A DNA stretch of 8,910 bases from the NCBI RefSeq assembly GCF_044324785.1, contig NZ_CP172131.1; one strand, 5' to 3'. This DNA is from Escherichia coli (lineage in GTDB: Bacteria; Pseudomonadota; Gammaproteobacteria; Enterobacterales; Enterobacteriaceae). The notes under the pieces were generated by a model. The model was not told where the DNA came from, ran no database searches, and worked only from the letters and a program-made list of their open reading frames with translations. Below are positions 1 to 8,910 of the stretch, piece by piece (position 1 is the first letter of the stretch; each line of letters begins with the position of its first letter). The position numbers and the translations under genes were made by a program.

Positions 1-69
1 TATTACCTTTCGAAGAAATTTTTGACATCCTCTACGCCCTGAAGGACCGGGTTTTACGGCGTACCAGAT

Positions 70-95
70 AAAAAAACCCCTCTACTGAAGAGGGG
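70..95 (-). terminator. Intrinsic terminator-like hairpin (minus-strand orientation)
   Basis: 7-bp GC-rich stem cccctct/agagggg (77-83/89-95) with 5-nt loop; the A-run at 70-76 on + gives a T-run after the hairpin on the - strand. Confidence 0.5.
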
Positions 96-218
96 TAGTG
101 TAAGGAACTTGCTGATTTTCTTGATATTATTAACCATCAATAACTGAGCATACAAAAAATAACAAAACTCTGACACAGATACAACCATCCCTCTTTGTAT
201 AAGACCGATGTGCATCTC

Positions 219-302
219 AAAAAAGAAGCGTGTTTCTGGAACACAGAACAACAATGCACATTGTAGCCAACAAATTCACACCAGAAACACGCTCTGTTTT
301 TT
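219..302. repeat. Long inverted-repeat element A: 13-bp perfect arms flanking a 41-nt loop, with A-run and T-run on the outside
   Basis: agcgtgtttctgg (227-239) is the exact reverse complement of ccagaaacacgct (281-293); aaaaaa at 219-224 and tgtttttt at 295-302 make the unit symmetric and terminator-like in both orientations. Confidence 0.6.
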
Positions 303-372
303 AATTTACACAAGAATATATGTCTGGAAAATCAGGAAGAAGAAATTAATGGGCATTCTGTATACGAAGGGA

Positions 373-434
373 GAGCGCGTTTCCGGTGCCCCATATTAGA
401 TATTATCCCTGCAACAAACACCAGAGACGCGCTC
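373..434. repeat. Inverted-repeat element B, related to element A
   Basis: Arms gagcgcgtttccggtg (373-388) and caccagagacgcgctc (419-434) pair over 16 positions with one mismatch and one G-U wobble, around a 30-nt loop; arm sequence is a variant of the element A arm. Confidence 0.55.
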
Positions 435-469
435 ATAATTCTTCTAGCGTAAATGATCCTTTCAGGCAA

Positions 470-497
470 GAAAAAAGCCGTGATTCTGTATCACGGC
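470..497 (-). terminator. Intrinsic terminator-like hairpin, strongest in minus orientation
   Basis: 8-bp stem gccgtgat/atcacggc (477-484/490-497), loop tctgt; aaaaaa at 471-476 gives a T-run on the - strand; a weaker T-rich tail (cttaatttta) follows on +. Confidence 0.45.
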
Positions 498-896
498 CTT
501 AATTTTATCGAAAACACGGATTTTAGTATGCACATGACTGTACTCCTGTGGAGTACAAGGAAATCATAATCAGCGACCAAACCATTTATCAACAGAAAAC
601 CAACATATTGATGTTATTTTTGTGACAAATGTTACAAATTCGAAACCACTGTATTTTTACTGCAACAAAATCTGGTTGATCTACAAGTTACACTGGGGTA
701 AAAAGTTGTCCGGAATGTTTCTGCGTAGTAAAGCCTCTAGCCGGATTGCCTTTGCAAAAACGCAGGAACGTTCCCCCCTTCATCAGTACTCCTGACGCTG
801 TAAGGAGCTGACTGATGCAGACAGGGCTGATGATATCTAATAAAAGCTATCTCATTTTTGCGCGTACATAAAATAAATCAGGCACTTCCCTACACT

Positions 897-925
897 CCCC
901 CTCCGGAATTGAGGGGGTTTTCTTT
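897..925 (+). terminator. Rho-independent terminator
   Basis: Stem ccccctc/gaggggg (897-903/911-917), 7-nt loop, followed by ttttcttt (918-925). Confidence 0.6.
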
Positions 926-1041
926 ACAATGTAAATAAATTGCTTGCGTAAAGTTCAAAAAAACTGCAAATTTTTACTGTAGTGTCGAGCTTCATGTAGC
1001 TCACCAGGGCATGGACTAAAAAGAAGTAAACCCATCTTTTA

Positions 1042-1067
1042 CCCCCCCTTATACGGGGGGTTCTTTA
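1042..1067 (+). terminator. Rho-independent terminator-like hairpin
   Basis: C-run (1042-1048) pairing with G-run (1055-1060) across loop ttatac, followed by ttcttta. Confidence 0.5.
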
Positions 1068-1361
1068 TAGCACAAAGAACACTTATAATTTATCATCTCA
1101 CAGCTATAAATATAAAAGAATAATATTCTAAACTACAGTTATTTATGCAGAACATAACATCAAACTCACAATAAATATAAAACAATTATTTTATAACTGT
1201 TCACTTATTATATTCAGACATATCAGAAACACGACTCAATTCTTTTTTATTTAACAAAATCCATAAAAAACTTATGGTTGAAATCACATTTAAACTGTGA
1301 AGGATATCATCCGGAGAAATTTTTCAATCCGACACTCCATAGAATGGACCTTTAAGACTTT

Positions 1362-1389
1362 ATCCTCATCATGTATGAGGATTTTTTTT
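1362..1389 (+). terminator. Rho-independent terminator
   Basis: Perfect 8-bp stem atcctcat/atgaggat (1362-1369/1375-1382), 5-nt loop, then a run of seven T (1383-1389). Confidence 0.7.
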
Positions 1390-1520
1390 CTGGCAAACAG
1401 TATCTTTCAGTAATCCTTGCTCAGTTCCGATTCTGACGTATCCCCGTGTGGATCTGAAAAGGAGATAATTACGCTCTGTGGCCAACAGGAATAACTCAAG
1501 CAGCTCCTCTCTGATACCAT

Positions 1521-1750
1521 CAGAAGAAGCATTAAACGCATTCTGGCGTCGATTACAGAAGAAGCGGAACGCGTTCCAGGCTCCTGTTGCTATACACACT
1601 ACCCACACTAACCCCATGGTTTTTGAGCGCCAGAAACGCGTCCGTATGCGTTTTAACGCGTTCCTGTGTTTTCAGCAAGGCCTGACTGAAGCTAGTTCCT
1701 AGTGCCCTGAACCAACCATTATCCAAAAAAATGCACCGGAAACGCGCTGA
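1521..1750. repeat. Array of at least five AACGCGTT-type palindromic motifs (iteron-like), same motif family as the arms of elements A and B
   Basis: Copies at about 1535-1546 (aaacgcattctgg), 1567-1578 (gaacgcgttcca, centred on the perfect palindrome GAACGCGTTC), 1633-1644 (gaaacgcgtccg), 1655-1665 (taacgcgttcc) and 1741-1749 (aaacgcgct). The 15-mer caccggaaacgcgct at 1735-1749 equals the reverse complement of 374-388. Two direct repeats beginning cagaagaagc sit at 1521 and 1556. Confidence 0.55.
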
Positions 1751-1772: not shown

Positions 1773-3326
1773 TTACCATCCCAGCGACGGGCCATCCAGT
1801 GTCCGTTCCTGTATTTCCAGATGGCGCTCACGCTCTAGGAATAGCTCATGTTCACGTTCCTGTATCAGTAGTTCGTCCCTTATCTCCTGCTCTCGCTGTA
1901 TAACTGGCTCAAGTGTTCTGTCTGCTCGCTCAAGTGCTGCACCTGCTGACTCAACTGCATGACCCGCTCGTTCAGCATCGCGTTGTCCCGTTGCGTAAGC
2001 GAAAACATCTTCTGCAATTCCACGAAGGCGCTCTCCCATTCGTTCAGCCGCTGCATATAGTCCTGTTGCAGCTGCTCTAAGGCGTTCAGCAAATGTGTTT
2101 CCAGCTCTGTCACTCTGTGTCACTCCTTCAGATGTACCCACTCTTTCCCCTGAAAGGGAATCACCTCTGCTGATTTCCCGTACGGAAGGACCAGAAATTT
2201 CCTGTTCCCGTCCTGCACGAACTCCACGCCCCATGTCTTCGCGTTCAGTTTCTGCAATGTCTCTTCCTGCTTCCTGATATCTTCCAGGTTCGCCTGTATC
2301 CTCCCGCCAAGATACCAGAGCGTCCCGCCACTCGCGGTAAACAGGAGAAAGACTATCCCCAGTAACATCATGCCCGTATTCCCTGCCAGCTTTAACACGT
2401 CCTTCCTGTGCTGCCTCATCGCCTCTTTCACCCCTTCCCGGTGTTTCTCCAGCGATTCCTCTGTCGAGGCTGTGAACAGGGCTATAGCGTCTCTGATTTT
2501 CGTCTCGTTTGATGTCACAGCCTCGCTTACAGATTCGCCGAGCCTCCTGAACTCGTTGTTCAGCACTTTCTCTGTAGATTCGGCTCTCTCTTTCAGCTTT
2601 TTCTCGAACTCCGCGCCCGTCTGTAAAAGATTGCTCATAAAACGCTCCTTTCAGCCTGATATTCTTCCCGCCGTTCGGGTCTGCAATGCTGATGCTGCTT
2701 CGCGTCACCCTGACCACTTCAAGCCCCGCCTCTGTGAGCGCCTGAATCACATCCTGACGGCCTTTTATCTCCCCTACATGATAAAGAGCGTCTATCCCGC
2801 GTGTGACGCTCTCAGCAAGCGCCTGTTTCGTTTCCGGCAGGTTATCAGAGAGAGTCAGTATCCGGCGGTTCTCCGGGGCGTTGGGGTCATGCAGCCCGTA
2901 ATGGTGATTCACCAGCGTCTGCCAGGCATCAATTCTCGGCCTGTCTGCCCGGTCGTAGTACGGCTGGAGACGTTTTCCGGTCTGTAGCTCCATGTTCGGA
3001 ATGACAAAATTCAGCTCAAGCCGTCCCTTGTCCTGGTGCTCCACCCACAGGATGCTGTACTGATTCTTTTCGAGACCTGGCATCAGTACGCGCTCAAAGC
3101 TCGCCATCACTTTTTCACGTCCTCCCGGCGGCAGCTCCTTCTCCGCGAACGACAGAACGCCTGACGTGTATTTCTTCGCAAATGGCGTGGCATCGATGAG
3201 TTCCCGGACTTCTTCCGGATTACCCTGAAGCACCGTTGCGCCTTCGCGGTTACGCTCCCTCCCCAGCAGGTAATCAACCGGACCACTGCCACCACCTTTT
3301 CCCCTGGCATGAAATTTAACTATCAT
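1773..3326 (-). CDS. mbeA: MbeA mobilisation relaxase (MOBP/HEN family), 517 aa
   Basis: ORF 1773..3374 trimmed to the internal Met giving MIVKFHARGKGGGSGPVDYLLG (ATG at 3326..3324). Carries the catalytic Tyr context PVDYLL and a HEN-type motif (WVEHQDKGRLELNFVIPN). The 517-aa length matches my recollection of ColE1 MbeA, and the start overlaps the mbeC stop as in ColE1. Confidence 0.9.
   Translation of the reverse strand: MIVKFHARGKGGGSGPVDYLLGRERNREGATVLQGNPEEVRELIDATPFAKKYTSGVLSFAEKELPPGGREKVMASFERVLMPGLEKNQYSILWVEHQDKGRLELNFVIPNMELQTGKRLQPYYDRADRPRIDAWQTLVNHHYGLHDPNAPENRRILTLSDNLPETKQALAESVTRGIDALYHVGEIKGRQDVIQALTEAGLEVVRVTRSSISIADPNGGKNIRLKGAFYEQSFTDGRGVREKAERESRIYRESAEQRVQEARRICKRGCDIKRDENQRRYSPVHSLDRGIAGETPGRGERGDEAAQEGRVKAGREYGHDVTGDSLSPVYREWRDALVSWREDTGEPGRYQEAGRDIAETEREDMGRGVRAGREQEISGPSVREISRGDSLSGERVGTSEGVTQSDRAGNTFAERLRAAATGLYAAAERMGERLRGIAEDVFAYATGQRDAERAGHAVESAGAALERADRTLEPVIQREQEIRDELLIQEREHELFLERERHLEIQERTLDGPSLGW
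1880..2113 (-). CDS. mbeD: MbeD-like small mobilisation protein nested out of frame within mbeA
   Basis: 77-aa ORF lying wholly inside mbeA in another frame, the arrangement described for ColE1 mbeD. Start is GTG (2113..2111) with AAGGAG 9 nt upstream; coiled-coil-like sequence. The start-codon choice is uncertain. Confidence 0.6.
   Translation of the reverse strand: MTELETHLLNALEQLQQDYMQRLNEWESAFVELQKMFSLTQRDNAMLNERVMQLSQQVQHLSEQTEHLSQLYSESRR
2120..2638 (-). CDS. mbeB: MbeB mobilisation protein nested out of frame within mbeA, 172 aa
   Basis: ORF inside mbeA in an alternative frame with a perfect SD (gaaAGGAGcgtttt then ATG at 2638..2636); a hydrophobic segment (MMLLGIVFLLFTASGG) suggests membrane anchoring; size matches ColE1 MbeB as recalled. 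Confidence 0.8.
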   Translation of the reverse strand: MSNLLQTGAEFEKKLKERAESTEKVLNNEFRRLGESVSEAVTSNETKIRDAIALFTASTEESLEKHREGVKEAMRQHRKDVLKLAGNTGMMLLGIVFLLFTASGGTLWYLGGRIQANLEDIRKQEETLQKLNAKTWGVEFVQDGNRKFLVLPYGKSAEVIPFQGKEWVHLKE

Positions 3327-3672
3327 CCCGCGCCCCCTGTTCCCTGACGGCCAGACGCAGCCGGCGCAGCTCATCCCCGATGGCCATCAGTGCGGCCACC
3401 ACCTGAACCCGATCACCGGAAGACCACTGCCCGCTGTTCACCTTCCTCGCGGTCTGATTCAGGTTATTCCCGATGGCGGCCAGCTGACGCAGTAACGGCG
3501 GTGCCAGTGTCGGCAGCTTCCCGGAACGGGCAACCGGCTCCCCCAGGCAGACCCGCCGCATCCATACCGCCAGTTGTTTACCCTCACAGCGTTCCAGTAA
3601 CCGGGCATGTTCATCATCAGTAACCCGTATCGTGAGCATCCTCTCGCGTTTCATCGGTATCATTACCCCCAT
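3316..3672 (-). CDS. mbeC: MbeC relaxase accessory protein (ribbon-helix-helix type)
   Basis: ORF with the N-terminal motif MKRERMLTIRVTDDEHARLLERC typical of MobC/MbeC accessory proteins; sits immediately upstream of mbeA and overlaps it by 11 nt. The true start is ambiguous among three in-frame ATGs (3672, 3663, 3654); the longest is given. Confidence 0.8.
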   Translation of the reverse strand: MGVMIPMKRERMLTIRVTDDEHARLLERCEGKQLAVWMRRVCLGEPVARSGKLPTLAPPLLRQLAAIGNNLNQTARKVNSGQWSSGDRVQVVAALMAIGDELRRLRLAVREQGARDDS

Positions 3673-4050: not shown

Positions 4051-4217
4051 GCGGCATCGGTGCGGATTGTATGAAAAGTGCACCATGTACGGTGTGAAAT
4101 GCCGCACAGATGCGTAAGGAGAACATGCAGATGCCGATGCTCTTCCGCTTCCTCGCTCACTGACTCGCTGCGCTCGGTCGTTCGGCTGTGGCGAGCGGTG
4201 TCTGCTCACTCAAAAGC

Positions 4218-4755: not shown

Positions 4756-4863
4756 ACAGTATTTGGTATCTGCGCTCTGCTGAAGCCAGTTACCTCGGTT
4801 AAGCAGTTCCCCAACTGACTTAACCTTCGATCAAACCGCCTCCCCAGGCGGTTTTTTCGTTTA
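4756..4863 (+). ncRNA. RNAI: RNA I antisense copy-number control RNA (about 108 nt)
   Basis: 5' region acagtatttggtatctgcgctctgctgaagccagttacct is identical to ColE1/pMB1 RNA I as recalled. Three stem-loops are retained, including ggttaag...cttaacc and the terminal hairpin aaaccgcctccccaggcggtttttt acting as terminator. Confidence 0.8.
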
Positions 4864-5104: not shown

Positions 5105-5446
5105 ATGAGTTTAAGATACTACATAAAAAACATTTTGTTTGGCCTATATTGCACACTTATATATATATACCTTATAACAAAAAACAACGAAGGGTATTAT
5201 TTCCTAGCGTCAGATAAGATGCTATACGCAATCGTGATAAGCACTATTCTATGCCCATATTCAAAATATGCTATTGAACACATATTTTTTAAGTTCATAA
5301 AGAAAGATTTTTTCAGAAAAAGAAAAAATCTAAATAATGCCCCCGTGGCAAAATTAAACCTATTTATGCTATACAATCTACTTTGTTTGGTCCTAGCAAT
5401 CCCATTTGGATTGCTAGGACTGTTTATATCAATAAAGAATAATTAA
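5105..5446 (+). CDS. imm: Colicin E1 immunity protein (Imm), 113 aa integral membrane protein
   Basis: Translation [44 protein letters not shown]... matches the colicin E1 immunity protein as recalled; SD gagg 8 nt upstream; convergent with cea, with the two stop codons overlapping by 4 bp. Confidence 0.95.
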
Positions 5447-7008
5447 ATACCCAACACATCATTTATAGTATTAAGTTTATTCTTGTCAATAAAGGCACAT
5501 AGAATGCCTGTAACAATAGCAATCCCCCAGATACCTAATGTAGTTCCAGCAAGCACACTAAAAAGTAAAACAACAATATAACTAACTCCAGCATCTACAG
5601 TTTTCTTCTCTAATGTAAGAAATAGTGGCTTCCAGTCACCTGTATCCTTAATTTTTAGGATATCAGATACCACATCATATCCAAAAGAAACATGTCCCGT
5701 AATCTTCAAGTACTTAGCAAACTGATCTAAATGCTTAGCCCAGTCTTCATACTTAACCGATTCCAGTGCATTGAAAATCGCATCACGGTCTGCTTTGCTG
5801 AATTTCTTATTTAAAACATCCTTGTATTTTTCAAAAGCAGCTAGAGCTTCATTCACATTGCTGATTTTCTTACCTTTAGACTTATCAGCAAGTTCCTGTG
5901 CCATTTTTGAATATTTTTCACCATATTTTTCAGATAGCGTTTGATAAAAGCTAACTGTTGCATCCACAGCATCCTTAATCTGCGAGTTCAGGAGATTAGT
6001 CTGCGCTGTTTTCAAATTTTCTTCAGATTCATGAACACGTAAAACAGCTGTATTACGATTATTATTAGCCTGAGACATAGCCCCCTGAATTCCATTTATC
6101 TCAGCATTAAGTTGGTTAATACGCGTTTCTGATGCTGTTACCTGTTTTTGTTTTTCCTCCATAATCTTACCGGCTCCCGTCCGTCGACTGGTGGCATAGA
6201 AAAAAGGACGACTCTGAAGCGGATCATTAGCTCTTGGTGACAATTTTTTGACCAGTTCATCAAGTTCCTTATATTTAGCAGATGCCTGAGCCAGCTCATT
6301 TCGTTTTCCGGACAGCGTATTCATTTCTGCATCACGGGCATGAATACTGGAGCTTAAACGGGTATTGAGAGTCTTAATCTCTTCATCCACTTTCGCCAGC
6401 TCAGATTGTGCAGCAGCAAGATTTTTTTGTGCCACCTCCACTGCCCGGGCCTCTTCATTCAATGCTGCCAGCCGTTTCTCTTCAGCTTCAGCCAGTTTCA
6501 ACTGGCGTTCTGTTTCAGCCTGCTCCTTCTCTATCTCTTTACGTCGTTGTTCTGCCTCCTGAAAAGCCTTTTCCGCAGCTTCCGCTTCTTTACGGGCTTT
6601 TTCTTCTGCTTTTGCAAGGCGCAACCGCTCTGCTTCTGCCTGCATCGCTGCATTATTGGCATGAGCCAGGTCAATAACCTCCGGATGAGTGGAATTATGA
6701 CGAAGCGCCTCATTCACAATATCCTTCAGATGTTGAGTCAGCGCATCCCGGTTTGCTTTTGCTTTAGCCTGTGCTTCTGCGGCAGCTTTTGCCCGGGCAG
6801 CCTGTTCTGCCTGCGTTTTCTTCAATTGAGCAGTAGACCATTTAGCTGTGGCATGAATGGCTGCAGAACTTTCACTTTTGCTACCTCCAGTTCCACCACC
6901 GCCGCCAGAGCCACTCCCGTCTGGATTACCATTCAAAAGAGTAATGATTACCTGCCCCTTATCATCATAAGGAACACCATCTTTATAGTACGCTACAGCT
7001 GTTTCCAT
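5443..7008 (-). CDS. cea: Colicin E1 (pore-forming colicin), 521 aa
   Basis: N-terminus [39 protein letters not shown] (Gly-rich translocation domain), a long Ala/Glu/Lys-rich coiled-coil central region, and a C-terminal channel domain with the hydrophobic hairpin [33 protein letters not shown]; SD gagg 8 nt upstream. Confidence 0.95.
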
Positions 7009-8208: not shown

Positions 8209-8212
8209 GTGG

Positions 8213-8242
8213 ATTTACCATAATCCCTTAATTGTACGCACC
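8213..8242 (-). other. cer-type XerC/XerD core recombination site for plasmid multimer resolution
   Basis: atttaccataatcccttaattgtacgcacc is the exact reverse complement of the ColE1 cer core as I recall it: GGTGCGTACAA (XerC arm), TTAAGGGA (8-bp spacer), TTATGGTAAAT (XerD arm). Confidence 0.85.
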
Positions 8243-8420
8243 GCTGAAATGCATTCAGCGCAATCACGGCAGCAGACAGGTAAAAATCGCAACAACCCCC
8301 CCGAAAAACTACCGCGATCGCGCCTGATAAATTTTAACCTTATGCATACCTATGCATCCAGGTGAATCACAAGCGAATTTCCTTACTGAGACGACTGAAA
8401 CGGTTTTTTTTCACAATTTT
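8243..8420 (-). other. Inferred cer accessory region (ArgR/PepA-binding sequences; expected location of the Pcer promoter for Rcd)
   Basis: In cer the roughly 180-bp accessory sequences flank the XerC arm, which here faces higher coordinates. A near-palindrome gctgaa-atgca-ttcagc (8243-8259) abuts the XerC arm. The extent is inferred, not seen; Rcd would run on the - strand through the core. Confidence 0.45.
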
Positions 8421-8679
8421 CAGCTGTTTTCGATTCCACAAAATAGAAGTTACAGGATAGGGATTAATCCCCTTCGCCGCCAAGGGGAGCAGGATGAGTC
8501 AGGGGAATGTCTATTCACCTGCGCTGTACAGGCTGCCAGGTAAAAGTATTCGCTGCGGCACGATACTCTTTTGCCCTCATAGCCTTTGCGCTTCTTACTT
8601 TTCGTTCTTCCAGAATCATTCTTAAGACATTTTCCCGCACTTTTCTCTAACTTCCCGTGGCAATTTATCTCTGCCGGAC

Positions 8680-8910
8680 TGAACCGCCCCGGAAATCCTG
8701 GAGACTAAACTTCCTGAGAAAGATGTAAACAGGATGACTAAAAATACTCGTTTTTCCCCCGAAGTCCGTCAACGGGCAGTTCGTATGGTTCTGGAAAGCC
8801 AGGGCGAATATGACTCACAATGGGCGGCAATTTGTTCCATTGCTCCAAAGATTGGCTGTACGCCAGAGACCCTGCGTGTCTGGGTTCGCCAGCATGAGCG
8901 GGATACCGGG
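8680..8910 (+). mobile_element. Left end of an IS3-family insertion sequence resembling IS629 (partial; continues past the window)
   Basis: Terminal sequence tgaaccgccccggaaatcctggagactaaacttcctgagaaag starting at 8680 with the 5'-TG typical of IS3-family ends, followed 54 bp later by the orfA start. Confidence 0.8.
8734..8910 (+). CDS. IS3-family transposase OrfA (HTH N-terminal part), truncated by the window end
   Basis: Translation [59 protein letters not shown] is open to the last base; it matches IS629-group OrfA N-termini as recalled. Confidence 0.8.

What the first reader, a model, noticed from the sequence alone, without database searches (positions are those of the whole stretch)
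1478..1702. 74-aa ORF with an SD whose repeated NAF tripeptides are generated by the DNA repeat array
The ORF (GTG start at 1478, AAGGAG at 1459-1464) translates to a protein containing NAF three times, each from an AACGCGTTC-type repeat copy. Either a real small protein is built over a repeat array, or, more likely, the open frame is a by-product of functional DNA repeats. The ORF is convergent with the end of mbeA and overlaps two minus-strand ORFs (1369-1617 and 1553-1831), which argues against all of them being genes.
Basis: inference. Interest (0 to 1): 0.35.

Follow-up and report, generated by a model that had tools for sequence, protein, structure and literature searches.

The report
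Accidental ORF over plasmid hairpin repeats
The 74-codon open frame is not a gene: it is a chance reading frame across the seam between two plasmid modules, and its repeated Asn-Ala-Phe codons come from the arms of conserved hairpin-forming DNA repeats whose function is still unknown.

Summary
The GTG ORF lies at 1478-1702, AAGGAG lies 13 nt upstream, and NAF occurs three times, each from an AACGC(G/A)TTC copy. The motif is about 7-fold enriched over shuffles.

The frame is not a gene. It spans a recombination seam at 1630-1643. To the left is a ~2.1-kb AT-rich non-coding island, 79-81% identical to a stretch in IncK2/Z conjugative plasmids. To the right is ordinary ColE1-type backbone. In the IncK2/Z homologue the start codon and SD are gone, four indels (+1, +1, -8, +2) break the frame, and a TGA follows the first NAF site. 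Close variants carry three non-synonymous changes plus loss of the stop, and no synonymous change. No protein family exists.

The "array" is not tandem. The motif forms the arms of imperfect palindromes: inverted pairs 33-49 nt apart. Family members sit right after the mbeA stop in hundreds of ColE1-type plasmids, next to cer, in the island, and in a cryptic 5.3-kb plasmid. Arms vary less than loops, and paralogues differ by compensatory double changes.

ColE1 itself lacks these elements, so they are dispensable. My best guess is that they are RNA stem-loops at the mob transcript end. This is inferred, not shown. The finding is of low interest.

The parts
1478..1702 (+). The 74-codon open frame of the finding; judged spurious (not a gene).
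   Evidence: Listed. The frame, start codon and SD are not conserved in the IncK2/Z homologue. It has no homologues except chimeric ORFs and no Pfam or NCBIfam hit. PGAP does not annotate it.
1459..1464 (+). SD-like AAGGAG, 13 nt upstream of the GTG.
   Evidence: Read. It lies in the least conserved stretch of the island (47-62% identity) and is replaced by GAAGAGG-type sequence in IncK2/Z.
1535..1548 (.). Unpaired left-arm-type copy (AACGCATTCTGGCG); source of the first NAF.
   Evidence: It is altered to AGCACATTCTGA in IncK2/Z, which puts a TGA in the ORF's frame.
1564..1643 (.). Hairpin element C. The left arm is GCGGAACGCGTTCCAGG (contains the 12-bp palindrome GGAACGCGTTCC; second NAF), followed by a 49-nt loop and the right arm CCAGAAACGCGTCC.
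   Evidence: pair 1570/1630. The arms are conserved and the loop is variable against IncK2/Z.
1630..1643 (.). Seam between the island and the ColE1-type backbone. It lies inside the shared CCAGAA(A/T)CGCG(C/T)CC core.
   Evidence: IncK2/Z homology ends at 1643 and backbone homology starts at 1630.
1630..1677 (+). Short hairpin made by the right arm with the next left-arm-type copy (AACGCGTTCCTG at 1655-1666, third NAF) or with ATGCGTTTT, followed by the U-rich tail UGUGUUUU. It is terminator-like on the plus strand and sits inside the ORF.
   Evidence: (site 1646-1661), and (z -2.2).
1688..1750 (.). Hairpin element D, a decayed copy of backbone element D'. The right arm GCACCGGAAACGCGCT is intact. 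The left arm is changed from GCGCGTTCCCGGTGC to GCTAGTTCCTAGTGC, which creates the ORF's TAG stop.
   Evidence: dG -9 in the window against -26 kcal/mol in ordinary backbones.
219..301 (.). Hairpin element A of the same family. It has 21-nt arms, with an A-run before it and a T-run after it.
   Evidence: (I5), and (z -6.1 and -4.4).
373..434 (.). Hairpin element B. It is homologous over its whole length (arms plus the loop motif ATTATCCC) to backbone element D'.
   Evidence: (I14). It is 95-97% conserved against IncK2/Z. Fold z is about -5.3 to -5.7.
1..1629 (.). Main part of the AT-rich non-coding island, inserted relative to ordinary ColE1-type backbones. It has no conserved ORF, many terminator-like hairpins and islands of 93-100% conservation.
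8511..8910 (.). Left part of the island (the window is a circle). It holds the 3' remnant of a small basic ORF (8515-8679, minus) truncated by a 231-bp IS3-family left-end fragment (8680-8910).
1362..1382 (+). Strong terminator-like hairpin with T8, about 95 nt upstream of the ORF. No promoter-like site lies between it and the GTG.
   Evidence: The stretch is 95% conserved.
1773..3374 (-). mbeA relaxase gene (its stop codon is at 1773-1775). Hairpins D and C lie directly downstream on its strand.
   Evidence: The region is 94% identical to the ColE1 mob region, where MbeB, MbeD and MobC are annotated.
8212..8413 (-). cer dimer-resolution site (core GGTGCGTACAATTAAGGGATTATGGTAAAT at 8212-8241 on the minus strand). 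It marks the left edge of the variable non-coding region.
   Evidence: Sequence read, with homology to backbones and to ColE1. The identity of the core sequence is from my own knowledge of cer.

Best explanation
The 74-codon frame is an accidental open frame in non-coding plasmid DNA.

Shown:
- The frame straddles a recombination seam at 1630-1643. To the left is the end of a ~2.1-kb AT-rich non-coding island shared with IncK2/Z plasmids. To the right is ordinary ColE1-type backbone lying just downstream of mbeA.
- The NAF codons are the reading of AACGCGTTC, which is part of the arms (consensus about CACCAGAAACGCGCTC and its complement) of a small family of imperfect palindromes 60-100 nt long.
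- Three left-arm-type copies happen to fall in the same frame.
- The ORF's stop codon was created by decay of one arm.
- The shared arm core is also the point where the two modules were joined.

Inferred (about 0.3 for this specific step): the palindromes act as RNA stem-loops. On the minus strand, elements D and C are the first structures after the mbeA stop, so they would mark or protect the 3' end of the mob transcript. The short plus-strand hairpin with a U-tail would stop transcription coming the other way. Together they would insulate mob, cer and the island's small transcription units from one another.
For: Non-coding status:
- The IncK2/Z homologue has lost the start codon and SD, has indels of +1, +1, -8 and +2, and has an in-frame TGA.
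- Close variants carry 3 non-synonymous changes plus a stop-loss and 0 synonymous changes.
- A search of 5.8 billion proteins finds only the same ORF and two backbone ORFs. These share only the C-terminal RMRFNAFLCFQQGLTEA and have N-termini encoded in cer.
- There is no Pfam or NCBIfam hit and no PGAP gene.
- A strong terminator lies 95 nt upstream, no promoter lies in between, and a terminator-like hairpin sits inside the ORF.
- The ORF's 5' end is in the least conserved stretch of the island.

Seam.

Palindrome family:
- The motif is enriched 13 hits against 1.95 expected.
- The core copies pair as inverted (-,+) pairs in the window, in IncK2/Z, in ColE1-type backbones and in a 5.3-kb plasmid.
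- Paralogues differ by compensatory double changes at columns 4, 7, 9 and 13 of an 18-pair stem, and also at its outer columns.
- Folds are stable for A, B, D', X1 and X2, with z from -3 to -6.
- Across 27 backbone variants, 2 of 39 arm columns vary against 46 of 192 other columns (Fisher p = 0.008).

Minus-strand RNA hint: there are 22 A.C mismatches (which become G.U on the minus strand) against 7 G.T, and the minus strand folds 5-9 kcal/mol more stably in 10 of 12 elements. D' begins 24 nt after the mbeA stop.
Against: - No transcript data are available.
- The 256-nt region as a whole folds no better than shuffles (z -0.8 and -1.1).
- Elements C and D have loops of 33-49 nt and no U-run on the minus strand, so they are not canonical intrinsic terminators.
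- After correction for composition the strand preference nearly disappears; z-scores are similar on both strands.
- The mismatch counts are not independent, because copies share ancestry.
- ColE1 itself goes from the mbeA stop straight into cer with no such element, so whatever they do is dispensable.
- Element D is decayed in this very plasmid.
- Invariant arms fit a sequence-specific binding protein, or concerted evolution, just as well as they fit RNA structure.
Confidence: 0.75

Rival explanations
1. The repeats are relics or selfish palindromes with no present function. They would be copies produced by duplication or inverted duplication in junk-tolerant plasmid DNA, kept alike by gene conversion, and useful to recombination only as short homologies.
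For: - ColE1 lacks them all.
- Element D is decaying in this plasmid, and intermediates exist.
- The island tolerates IS3 and IS1 insertions at several different points.
- Only two sequence contexts were found among 60 metagenome hits.
- The seam sits in a shared arm.
Against: - Arms are significantly less variable than flanks and loops across 27 backbone variants (p = 0.008).
- Element B is 95-97% conserved between lineages that are only 79% identical overall.
- Compensatory double changes occur among paralogues.
Confidence: 0.25
2. The arms are binding sites for a sequence-specific DNA-binding protein, either host-encoded or from a co-resident plasmid. Examples would be an operator set, a centromere-like site, or a nucleoid or gyrase site as in BIMEs.
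For: - Arms are nearly invariant among orthologues while loops vary.
- The 12-bp perfect palindrome GGAACGCGTTCC is conserved in both lineages.
- Copies cluster within about 1.7 kb.
Against: - Half-sites are 33-49 bp apart with variable spacing, unlike dimer operators.
- Paralogues change both arms together, which a fixed recognition sequence would not tolerate.
- No protein co-occurs with the elements across the four plasmid types: ColE1-type, IncK2/Z, the 5.3-kb plasmid and this one.
- From memory, I found no match to any E. coli regulator consensus I considered.
Confidence: 0.15
3. The hairpins work as single-stranded DNA during conjugative transfer or replication. Possible roles are priming sites (PriA-type primosome assembly sites or ssi signals) or something akin to what has been suggested for the neighbouring STAXI motif.
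For: - In IncK2/Z the island ends 85 nt upstream of a STAXI motif.
- In the 5.3-kb plasmid the related region adjoins STAXI and EFASI.
- A 40-nt unit including the right arm is shared upstream of STAXI and after the mbeA stop.
- Rfam's description of STAXI raises an ssDNA role (quoted in PMC12370729).
- GAAGCGG, the hexamer-containing word I recall from n' sites, precedes arm C at 1561-1567, and the canonical ori-proximal site has it at 4145-4151.
Against: - The island has opposite orientation relative to nikB/oriT in different IncK2/Z plasmids, so no fixed relation to the transferred strand exists there.
- In the ColE1-type plasmid the region would enter the recipient late (inference from gene order).
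- The GAAGCGG match is a single 7-mer.
- No Rfam family hits the window except RNAI.
Confidence: 0.15
4. The 74-aa ORF encodes a real small protein built over the repeats.
For: The frame is open and has an AAGGAG upstream. One database entry calls a 66-aa partial of it.
Against: - The frame, start and SD are not conserved.
- The variation seen is all non-synonymous or stop-loss.
- It is chimeric across a module seam.
- It has no family.
- SD spacing is 13 nt.
- A terminator lies upstream and another lies inside the frame.
Confidence: 0.03

Closest known systems
REP/BIME elements and REPINs (paired inverted palindromic units forming long hairpins in enterobacterial and Pseudomonas intergenic DNA)
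   Same: Short conserved units occur as inverted pairs separated by a variable spacer and are predicted to form long imperfect hairpins. They lie in non-coding DNA, often just past the 3' end of an operon, where REPs are known to stabilise upstream mRNA and attenuate transcription (from my own knowledge).
   Different: - There are only a handful of copies, all on plasmids.
- No chromosomal copies were found in 5,426 E. coli genomes.
- No RAYT-type transposase is associated.
- The arm sequence is unrelated to the E. coli REP consensus.
- Individual arms are not themselves palindromic, except GGAACGCGTTCC.
Intrinsic terminators and 3'-UTR stem-loops of plasmid operons
   Same: A G+C-rich stem lies immediately after a stop codon (D' starts 24 nt after the mbeA stop). 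Element A is flanked by A- and T-runs like a bidirectional terminator. The short 1646-1661 hairpin has a U-rich tail.
   Different: Elements C, D and B have loops of 30-49 nt and lack a U-tract, so they fail the canonical terminator pattern.
STAXI and EFASI motifs (Rfam RF01728, RF02957): plasmid-borne enterobacterial structured non-coding motifs of unknown function
   Same: They share the genomic neighbourhood. STAXI follows the island in IncK2/Z, and STAXI and EFASI adjoin the related region in the 5.3-kb plasmid. Like the hairpins, they are conserved structured non-coding DNA or RNA with no assigned function.
   Different: The window has no STAXI or EFASI match. The hairpin elements are simple stems, not the repeated pseudoknotted units of STAXI.
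ColE1/pBR322 primosome assembly (n') sites
   Same: They are hairpin-forming sequences on ColE1-type plasmids. The word GAAGCGG is present next to arm C.
   Different: The canonical site lies near ori at about 4140-4200. Apart from the 7-mer there is no alignment between it and the hairpins. Function was not tested.

Membership tests
Protein-coding gene (small protein) | The reading frame, start codon and ribosome-binding site are conserved in homologous DNA. | tested here: not met
   In IncK2/Z the GTG is ATA, the SD is lost, there are indels of +1, +1, -8 and +2, and there is an in-frame TGA.
Protein-coding gene (small protein) | Excess of synonymous over non-synonymous change. | tested here: not met
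   Close variants show 3 non-synonymous changes, 1 stop-loss and 0 synonymous changes. The sample is small.
Protein-coding gene (small protein) | Homologous proteins or a family exist elsewhere. | tested here: not met
   There are no Pfam or NCBIfam hits. The 5.8-billion-protein search returns only the same ORF and two chimeric backbone ORFs.
Protein-coding gene (small protein) | The frame is translated. | not testable with these tools
   This needs ribosome profiling or proteomics.
Tandem repeat array / iterons | Direct, head-to-tail or regularly spaced copies in one orientation. | tested here: not met
   Copies alternate in orientation as (-,+) pairs with 33-49 nt between the arms.
Imperfect palindrome / stem-loop element | The two arms are complementary, and complementarity is kept when the sequence changes. 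| tested here: met
   11-16 of 18 positions pair in each of 11 elements. Compensatory double changes occur at columns 4, 7, 9 and 13 and at outer columns. Folds give z from -3 to -6 for five element types.
Intrinsic (rho-independent) terminator | G+C-rich stem, short loop, then a U-run. | tested here: inconclusive
   The feature is met weakly by the 1646-1661 hairpin on the plus strand and by element A's flanking T-run. It is not met by C, D or B, which have large loops and no U-run.
REP/BIME/REPIN | Many dispersed chromosomal copies, with an associated RAYT transposase. | tested here: not met
   There are no chromosomal copies of the island or hairpins in 5,426 E. coli genomes. Pattern scans of 100,044 species genomes and of JGI metagenomes found only the two plasmid contexts.
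Curated RNA families (Rfam 15) | A covariance-model match. | tested here: not met
   Only RNAI at 4758-4860 matches at E <= 1 in the whole window.
oriT / relaxase nick region (ColE1 MbeA or IncI NikB type) | Similarity to the nick region and its adjacent inverted repeat. | tested here: not met
   The window's own oriT region and the IncK2/Z oriT show no copy of the motif.
PriA-type primosome assembly site | Supports complementary-strand priming on ssDNA. | not testable with these tools
   Only a GAAGCGG word at 1561-1567 is present. A functional ssi assay is needed.

The most novel reading that the evidence does not exclude
The hairpin family and the conserved islands around it would form a plasmid-borne non-coding RNA module that travels with STAXI in IncK2/Z plasmids. 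Its B-hairpin transcript (plus strand, about 340-505) would be antisense-like to the D' hairpin in the 3' end of the mob mRNA of ColE1-type plasmids. The arms are complementary at 15 of 16 positions, and the loops share ATTATCCC/GGGATAAT. A conjugative plasmid, or this island, could then tune mobilisation of small plasmids in trans by loop-loop pairing.
Probability: 0.05. Interest if true: 0.6.

Novelty: new member of a known kind. Interest (0 to 1): 0.18.

Why it matters
Mostly as a clean-up. It removes a plausible-looking small ORF with an SD, which some annotation pipelines do call (partially, or on the opposite strand), and it shows how palindromic repeats can produce repeated peptide motifs on both strands.

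Secondarily, it documents three things:
- an unannotated, partly well-conserved 2.1-kb non-coding island shared by small ColE1-type and large IncK2/Z plasmids from poultry-associated E. coli;
- a small hairpin family that marks the variable region between cer and mob;
- a module junction that lies inside one of those hairpin arms.

If the hairpins or the island's candidate small RNAs proved functional, they would add to the poorly understood non-coding repertoire of plasmids (STAXI, EFASI).

Tried and rejected
- **Known RNA families.** Rfam finds only RNAI in the window.
- **Protein families.** Pfam and NCBIfam give nothing for the 74-aa ORF, both overlapping minus-strand ORFs and other island ORFs.
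- **Phage origin.** There is no match in 50,697 phage records.
- **Second ColE1-type replicon in the island.** There is no second RNAI and no similarity to the ori.
- **hok/sok-type or other type I toxin-antitoxin locus.** There is no Rfam hit and no Hok-like ORF.
- **Integron attC sites, XerCD sites, shufflon sfx repeats, LacI/IclR-type operators, DnaA and IHF boxes, marbox.** I compared these by eye with consensus sequences recalled from memory, and none fits.
- **IncI or ColE1 oriT mimic.** Rejected.
- **General insertion hot spot at the hairpin.** Seven other ColE1-type backbones all share the same left flank, so the seam is a single event.
- **Dispersed mobile element.** The genome and metagenome pattern scans found only the known contexts.
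- **Literature search for the motif sequence.** Nothing relevant was found.
- **Relaxase remnant next to the IncK2/Z island.** tblastn with MbeA found none.
- **Whole-region RNA folding.** Not better than shuffles.

Full report
**What the window is.** The 8,910-base window is a complete small ColE1-type colicin plasmid.
- It carries colicin E1-like cea (5443-7008, minus), imm, a lysis gene, RNAI (Rfam, 4758-4860), rom, mbeC/mbeA/mbeB/mbeD (mbeA at 1773-3374, minus), an Exc2 lipoprotein and cer (core at 8212-8241).
- It is 89-94% identical to ColE1 over everything except 8362-8910 plus 1-1769.
- Identical or near-identical 8.9-kb plasmids are common in E. coli from chickens and humans.
- The junction 8910->1 is contiguous in metagenome contigs.

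**Checking the observation.**
- The ORF (GTG at 1478, stop at 1700-1702, 74 aa) and the AAGGAG at 1459-1464 are there.
- The spacing of 13 nt is long for an SD.
- NAF occurs three times, from AACGCATTC (1535), AACGCGTTC (1568) and AACGCGTTC (1655).
- AACGCGTTC with up to 1 mismatch occurs 14 times against 1.96 expected. The longer core CCAGAAACGCG with up to 2 mismatches occurs 13 times against 1.95 expected. No shuffle reached either count.
- The two overlapping minus-strand ORFs exist. Because GAACGCGTTC is its own reverse complement, the minus-strand ORF 1369-1617 also reads NAF twice.

**The ORF straddles a seam between two modules.**
- About 200 ordinary ColE1-type plasmids match the window only from position 1630 rightwards.
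- To the left, positions 71/97-1643 are 79-81% identical to an unannotated stretch of IncK2/Z conjugative plasmids.
- The two homologies overlap only in CCAGAA(A/T)CGCG(C/T)CC (1630-1643).
- Seven other backbones all share a different left flank, which runs from cer into the same core.
- So the N-terminal two-thirds of the ORF comes from one module and the C-terminal third from another.
- In ordinary backbones, gene callers have produced 83-93-aa ORFs that share only RMRFNAFLCFQQGLTEA with this ORF and that begin inside cer.

**Coding tests.** In the IncK2/Z homologue:
- the GTG is ATA and the SD is lost;
- indels of +1, +1, -8 and +2 nt interrupt the frame;
- the first NAF site has become AGC ACA TTC TGA.

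Other evidence points the same way:
- The ORF's 5' end lies in the least conserved part of the island (47-62% identity in 40-nt windows).
- Among near-identical plasmids, the changes inside the ORF are S->C, R->L, S->R and TAG->TGG. None is synonymous.
- No Pfam or NCBIfam family matches this ORF or the overlapping ones.
- A search of 5.8 billion proteins finds no true homologue.
- PGAP annotates nothing in 1-1800.
- A strong terminator-like hairpin with T8 (1362-1382) lies 95 nt upstream with no promoter-like site after it, and another terminator-like hairpin (1646-1661) lies inside the ORF.

I conclude that the frame is not a gene.

**What the repeats are.** The core copies are not tandem. 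They occur as inverted (-,+) pairs:
- A: 229/281;
- B: 376/421;
- C: 1570/1630;
- D: right arm at 1736. The core search pairs it with the copy at 1657, 68 nt away, but its true left arm is the decayed one at 1692, 33 nt away.

The same architecture is found elsewhere:
- in the IncK2/Z homologue;
- in ordinary backbones, as D' starting 24 nt after the mbeA stop and E next to cer;
- twice in a 5.3-kb cryptic plasmid, L014.

B and D' are homologous over their whole 62-66 nt, including the loop motif ATTATCCC. In the window the left arm of D has decayed (GCGCG->GCTAG, CCCGG->CCTAG). This change is what creates the ORF's TAG stop. Sister plasmids show intermediate states.

**Evidence of constraint on the palindromes.**
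- I aligned the arms of 11 elements as an 18-pair stem. In each element 11-16 positions pair, and paralogues differ by double changes that keep pairing: G-C/A-T at column 4, C-G/T-A at column 7, T-A/A-T at column 9, T-A/C-G at column 13, and more at the outer end.
- Most elements fold far better than shuffles, with z from -3 to -6 for A, B, D', X1 and X2.
- Across 27 distinct backbone variants, 2 of 39 columns in arms that were not used to select the sequences vary, against 46 of 192 other columns (Fisher p = 0.008).
- B sits in a block that is 95-97% conserved between lineages only 79% identical overall.

**Evidence against importance.**
- ColE1 itself passes from the mbeA stop directly into cer with none of these elements.
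- D is decaying here.
- The island has taken IS3 and IS1 insertions at several different points in different plasmids.

**How they most likely work (inference).**
- Variable spacing and compensatory change argue for pairing between the arms rather than a dimeric DNA-binding protein.
- Mismatches are mostly A.C on the plus strand, which become G.U on the minus strand (22 against 7; the counts are not independent).
- The minus strand folds 5-9 kcal/mol more stably in 10 of 12 elements, although composition-corrected z-scores are similar on both strands.
- The minus strand is the mob operon's sense strand, and D' and C are the first structures after the mbeA stop.
- I therefore favour RNA stem-loops that define or protect the 3' end of the mob transcript. 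The short U-tailed plus-strand hairpin would block transcription from the other side.
- I give this specific step about 0.3. The 256-nt region as a whole is not unusually structured, and C, D and B are not canonical terminators.
- The rivals are neutral or selfish palindromes (0.25), protein-binding sites (0.15) and ssDNA priming or a STAXI-like role (0.15).
- The ssDNA idea draws on context. In IncK2/Z the island ends 85 nt upstream of a STAXI motif. L014 has STAXI and EFASI beside its related region. A 40-nt unit (right arm plus TTTTAGCCTGTCTC) is shared upstream of STAXI and after the mbeA stop. Rfam's text on STAXI raises an ssDNA role (quoted in PMC12370729).
- However, the island has opposite orientation relative to nikB in different IncK2/Z plasmids.

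**Origin of the island.**
- Its left end (8515-8679) is the 3' remnant of an 81-aa basic ORF. That ORF normally sits next to rop in ~3.9-kb ColE1-like plasmids.
- Here it is truncated by a 231-bp IS3-family left end that is 100% identical to full copies flanking the IncK2/Z island.
- The island thus looks like a piece of another small ColE1-like plasmid. It has been shuffled, with IS help, into IncK2/Z plasmids and into this colicin plasmid.
- The right-hand crossover fell in the conserved hairpin arm.

**Comparison with known things.**
- The closest analogues are REP/BIME/REPIN-type paired palindromes and 3'-UTR stem-loops.
- Membership in REP/REPIN fails on copy number, chromosomal distribution and RAYT association.
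- Membership in canonical terminators is only partly met.
- No Rfam family matches.
- I file it as a new, small, plasmid-restricted member of the general class of intergenic palindromic stem-loop elements.

**Verdict.** The finding is ordinary and of low interest.

Noticed in passing
window 468-592, minus strand: Candidate small RNA of about 90 nt. It has a promoter-like TTGATA-18-TATGAT (592-563), a 5' hairpin, a 38-nt open A/U-rich stretch containing CCGUGUUUUCGA (similar to the hairpin-arm motif), and a terminator hairpin with U6. Fold z is -4.4. It is 93-100% conserved against IncK2/Z while its neighbours are 50-80% conserved. The terminator stem carries a compensatory change in IncK2/Z, and L014 has a different hairpin at that position (seen in the sequence). 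It has no Rfam match.
   Followed up: partly
window 340-505, 955-1068 and 1312-1392, plus strand: Three more terminator-ended units in conserved islands, with terminator-like hairpins at 477-497, 1041-1061 and 1362-1382; a fourth terminator-like hairpin lies at 897-917. Terminator-like sites number 11 in 1-1900 against 1.5 expected. The first unit would carry hairpin B as its central stem-loop. Transcription was not tested.
   Followed up: partly
window 18-72: A ~55-bp unit (TTGACATCCTCTACGCCCTGAAGGACCGGGTTTTACGGCGTACC) is absent from the IncK2/Z homologue. It is present in about 590 plasmids, where it lies upstream of hok/gef in IncI2 and is also found in IncHI2 plasmids. It also occurs in Stx prophages between the Q antiterminator gene and stxA. 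In L014 two inverted copies bracket a 217-bp piece holding one hairpin pair. I could not identify it.
   Followed up: partly
window 8680-8910 and 8515-8679: A 231-bp left-end fragment of an IS3-family element, 100% identical to full copies in IncK2/Z plasmids, truncates a small basic ORF (WP_045148228 family, 81 aa, no Pfam hit). That ORF is otherwise found next to rop in ~3.9-kb ColE1-like plasmids.
   Followed up: yes
L004 8396-8553; L005 7543-7700; L014 2859-3018 and 2259-2381: STAXI (and, in L014, EFASI) Rfam motifs lie beside the island or its relative. A 40-nt unit, CC(A/G)GAAACGCGC..TTTTAGCCTGTCTC, is shared upstream of STAXI and directly after the mbeA stop of ColE1-type backbones.
   Followed up: partly
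window 1692-1702: Both changes that decay the left arm of hairpin D (GCGCG->GCTAG and CCCGG->CCTAG) create CTAG, which from my own knowledge is a tetranucleotide normally rare in E. coli. Sister plasmids carry intermediate states. This is unexplained.
   Followed up: no
L001, L002, L004, L005 (IncK2/Z plasmids): The island has IS3-family insertions at positions equivalent to window 71, 97 and 173 and an IS1 at 1189-1251 in different plasmids. It lies in opposite orientation relative to nikB in L001 and L002, which suggests inversion between flanking IS3 copies.
   Followed up: partly
window 2937-3374 region (mbeA): PGAP annotates mbeA in an identical plasmid only as a partial pseudogene, although the window has an intact 533-codon frame that is 94% identical at the DNA level to ColE1 mbeA. 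This is probably an annotation artefact.
   Followed up: no
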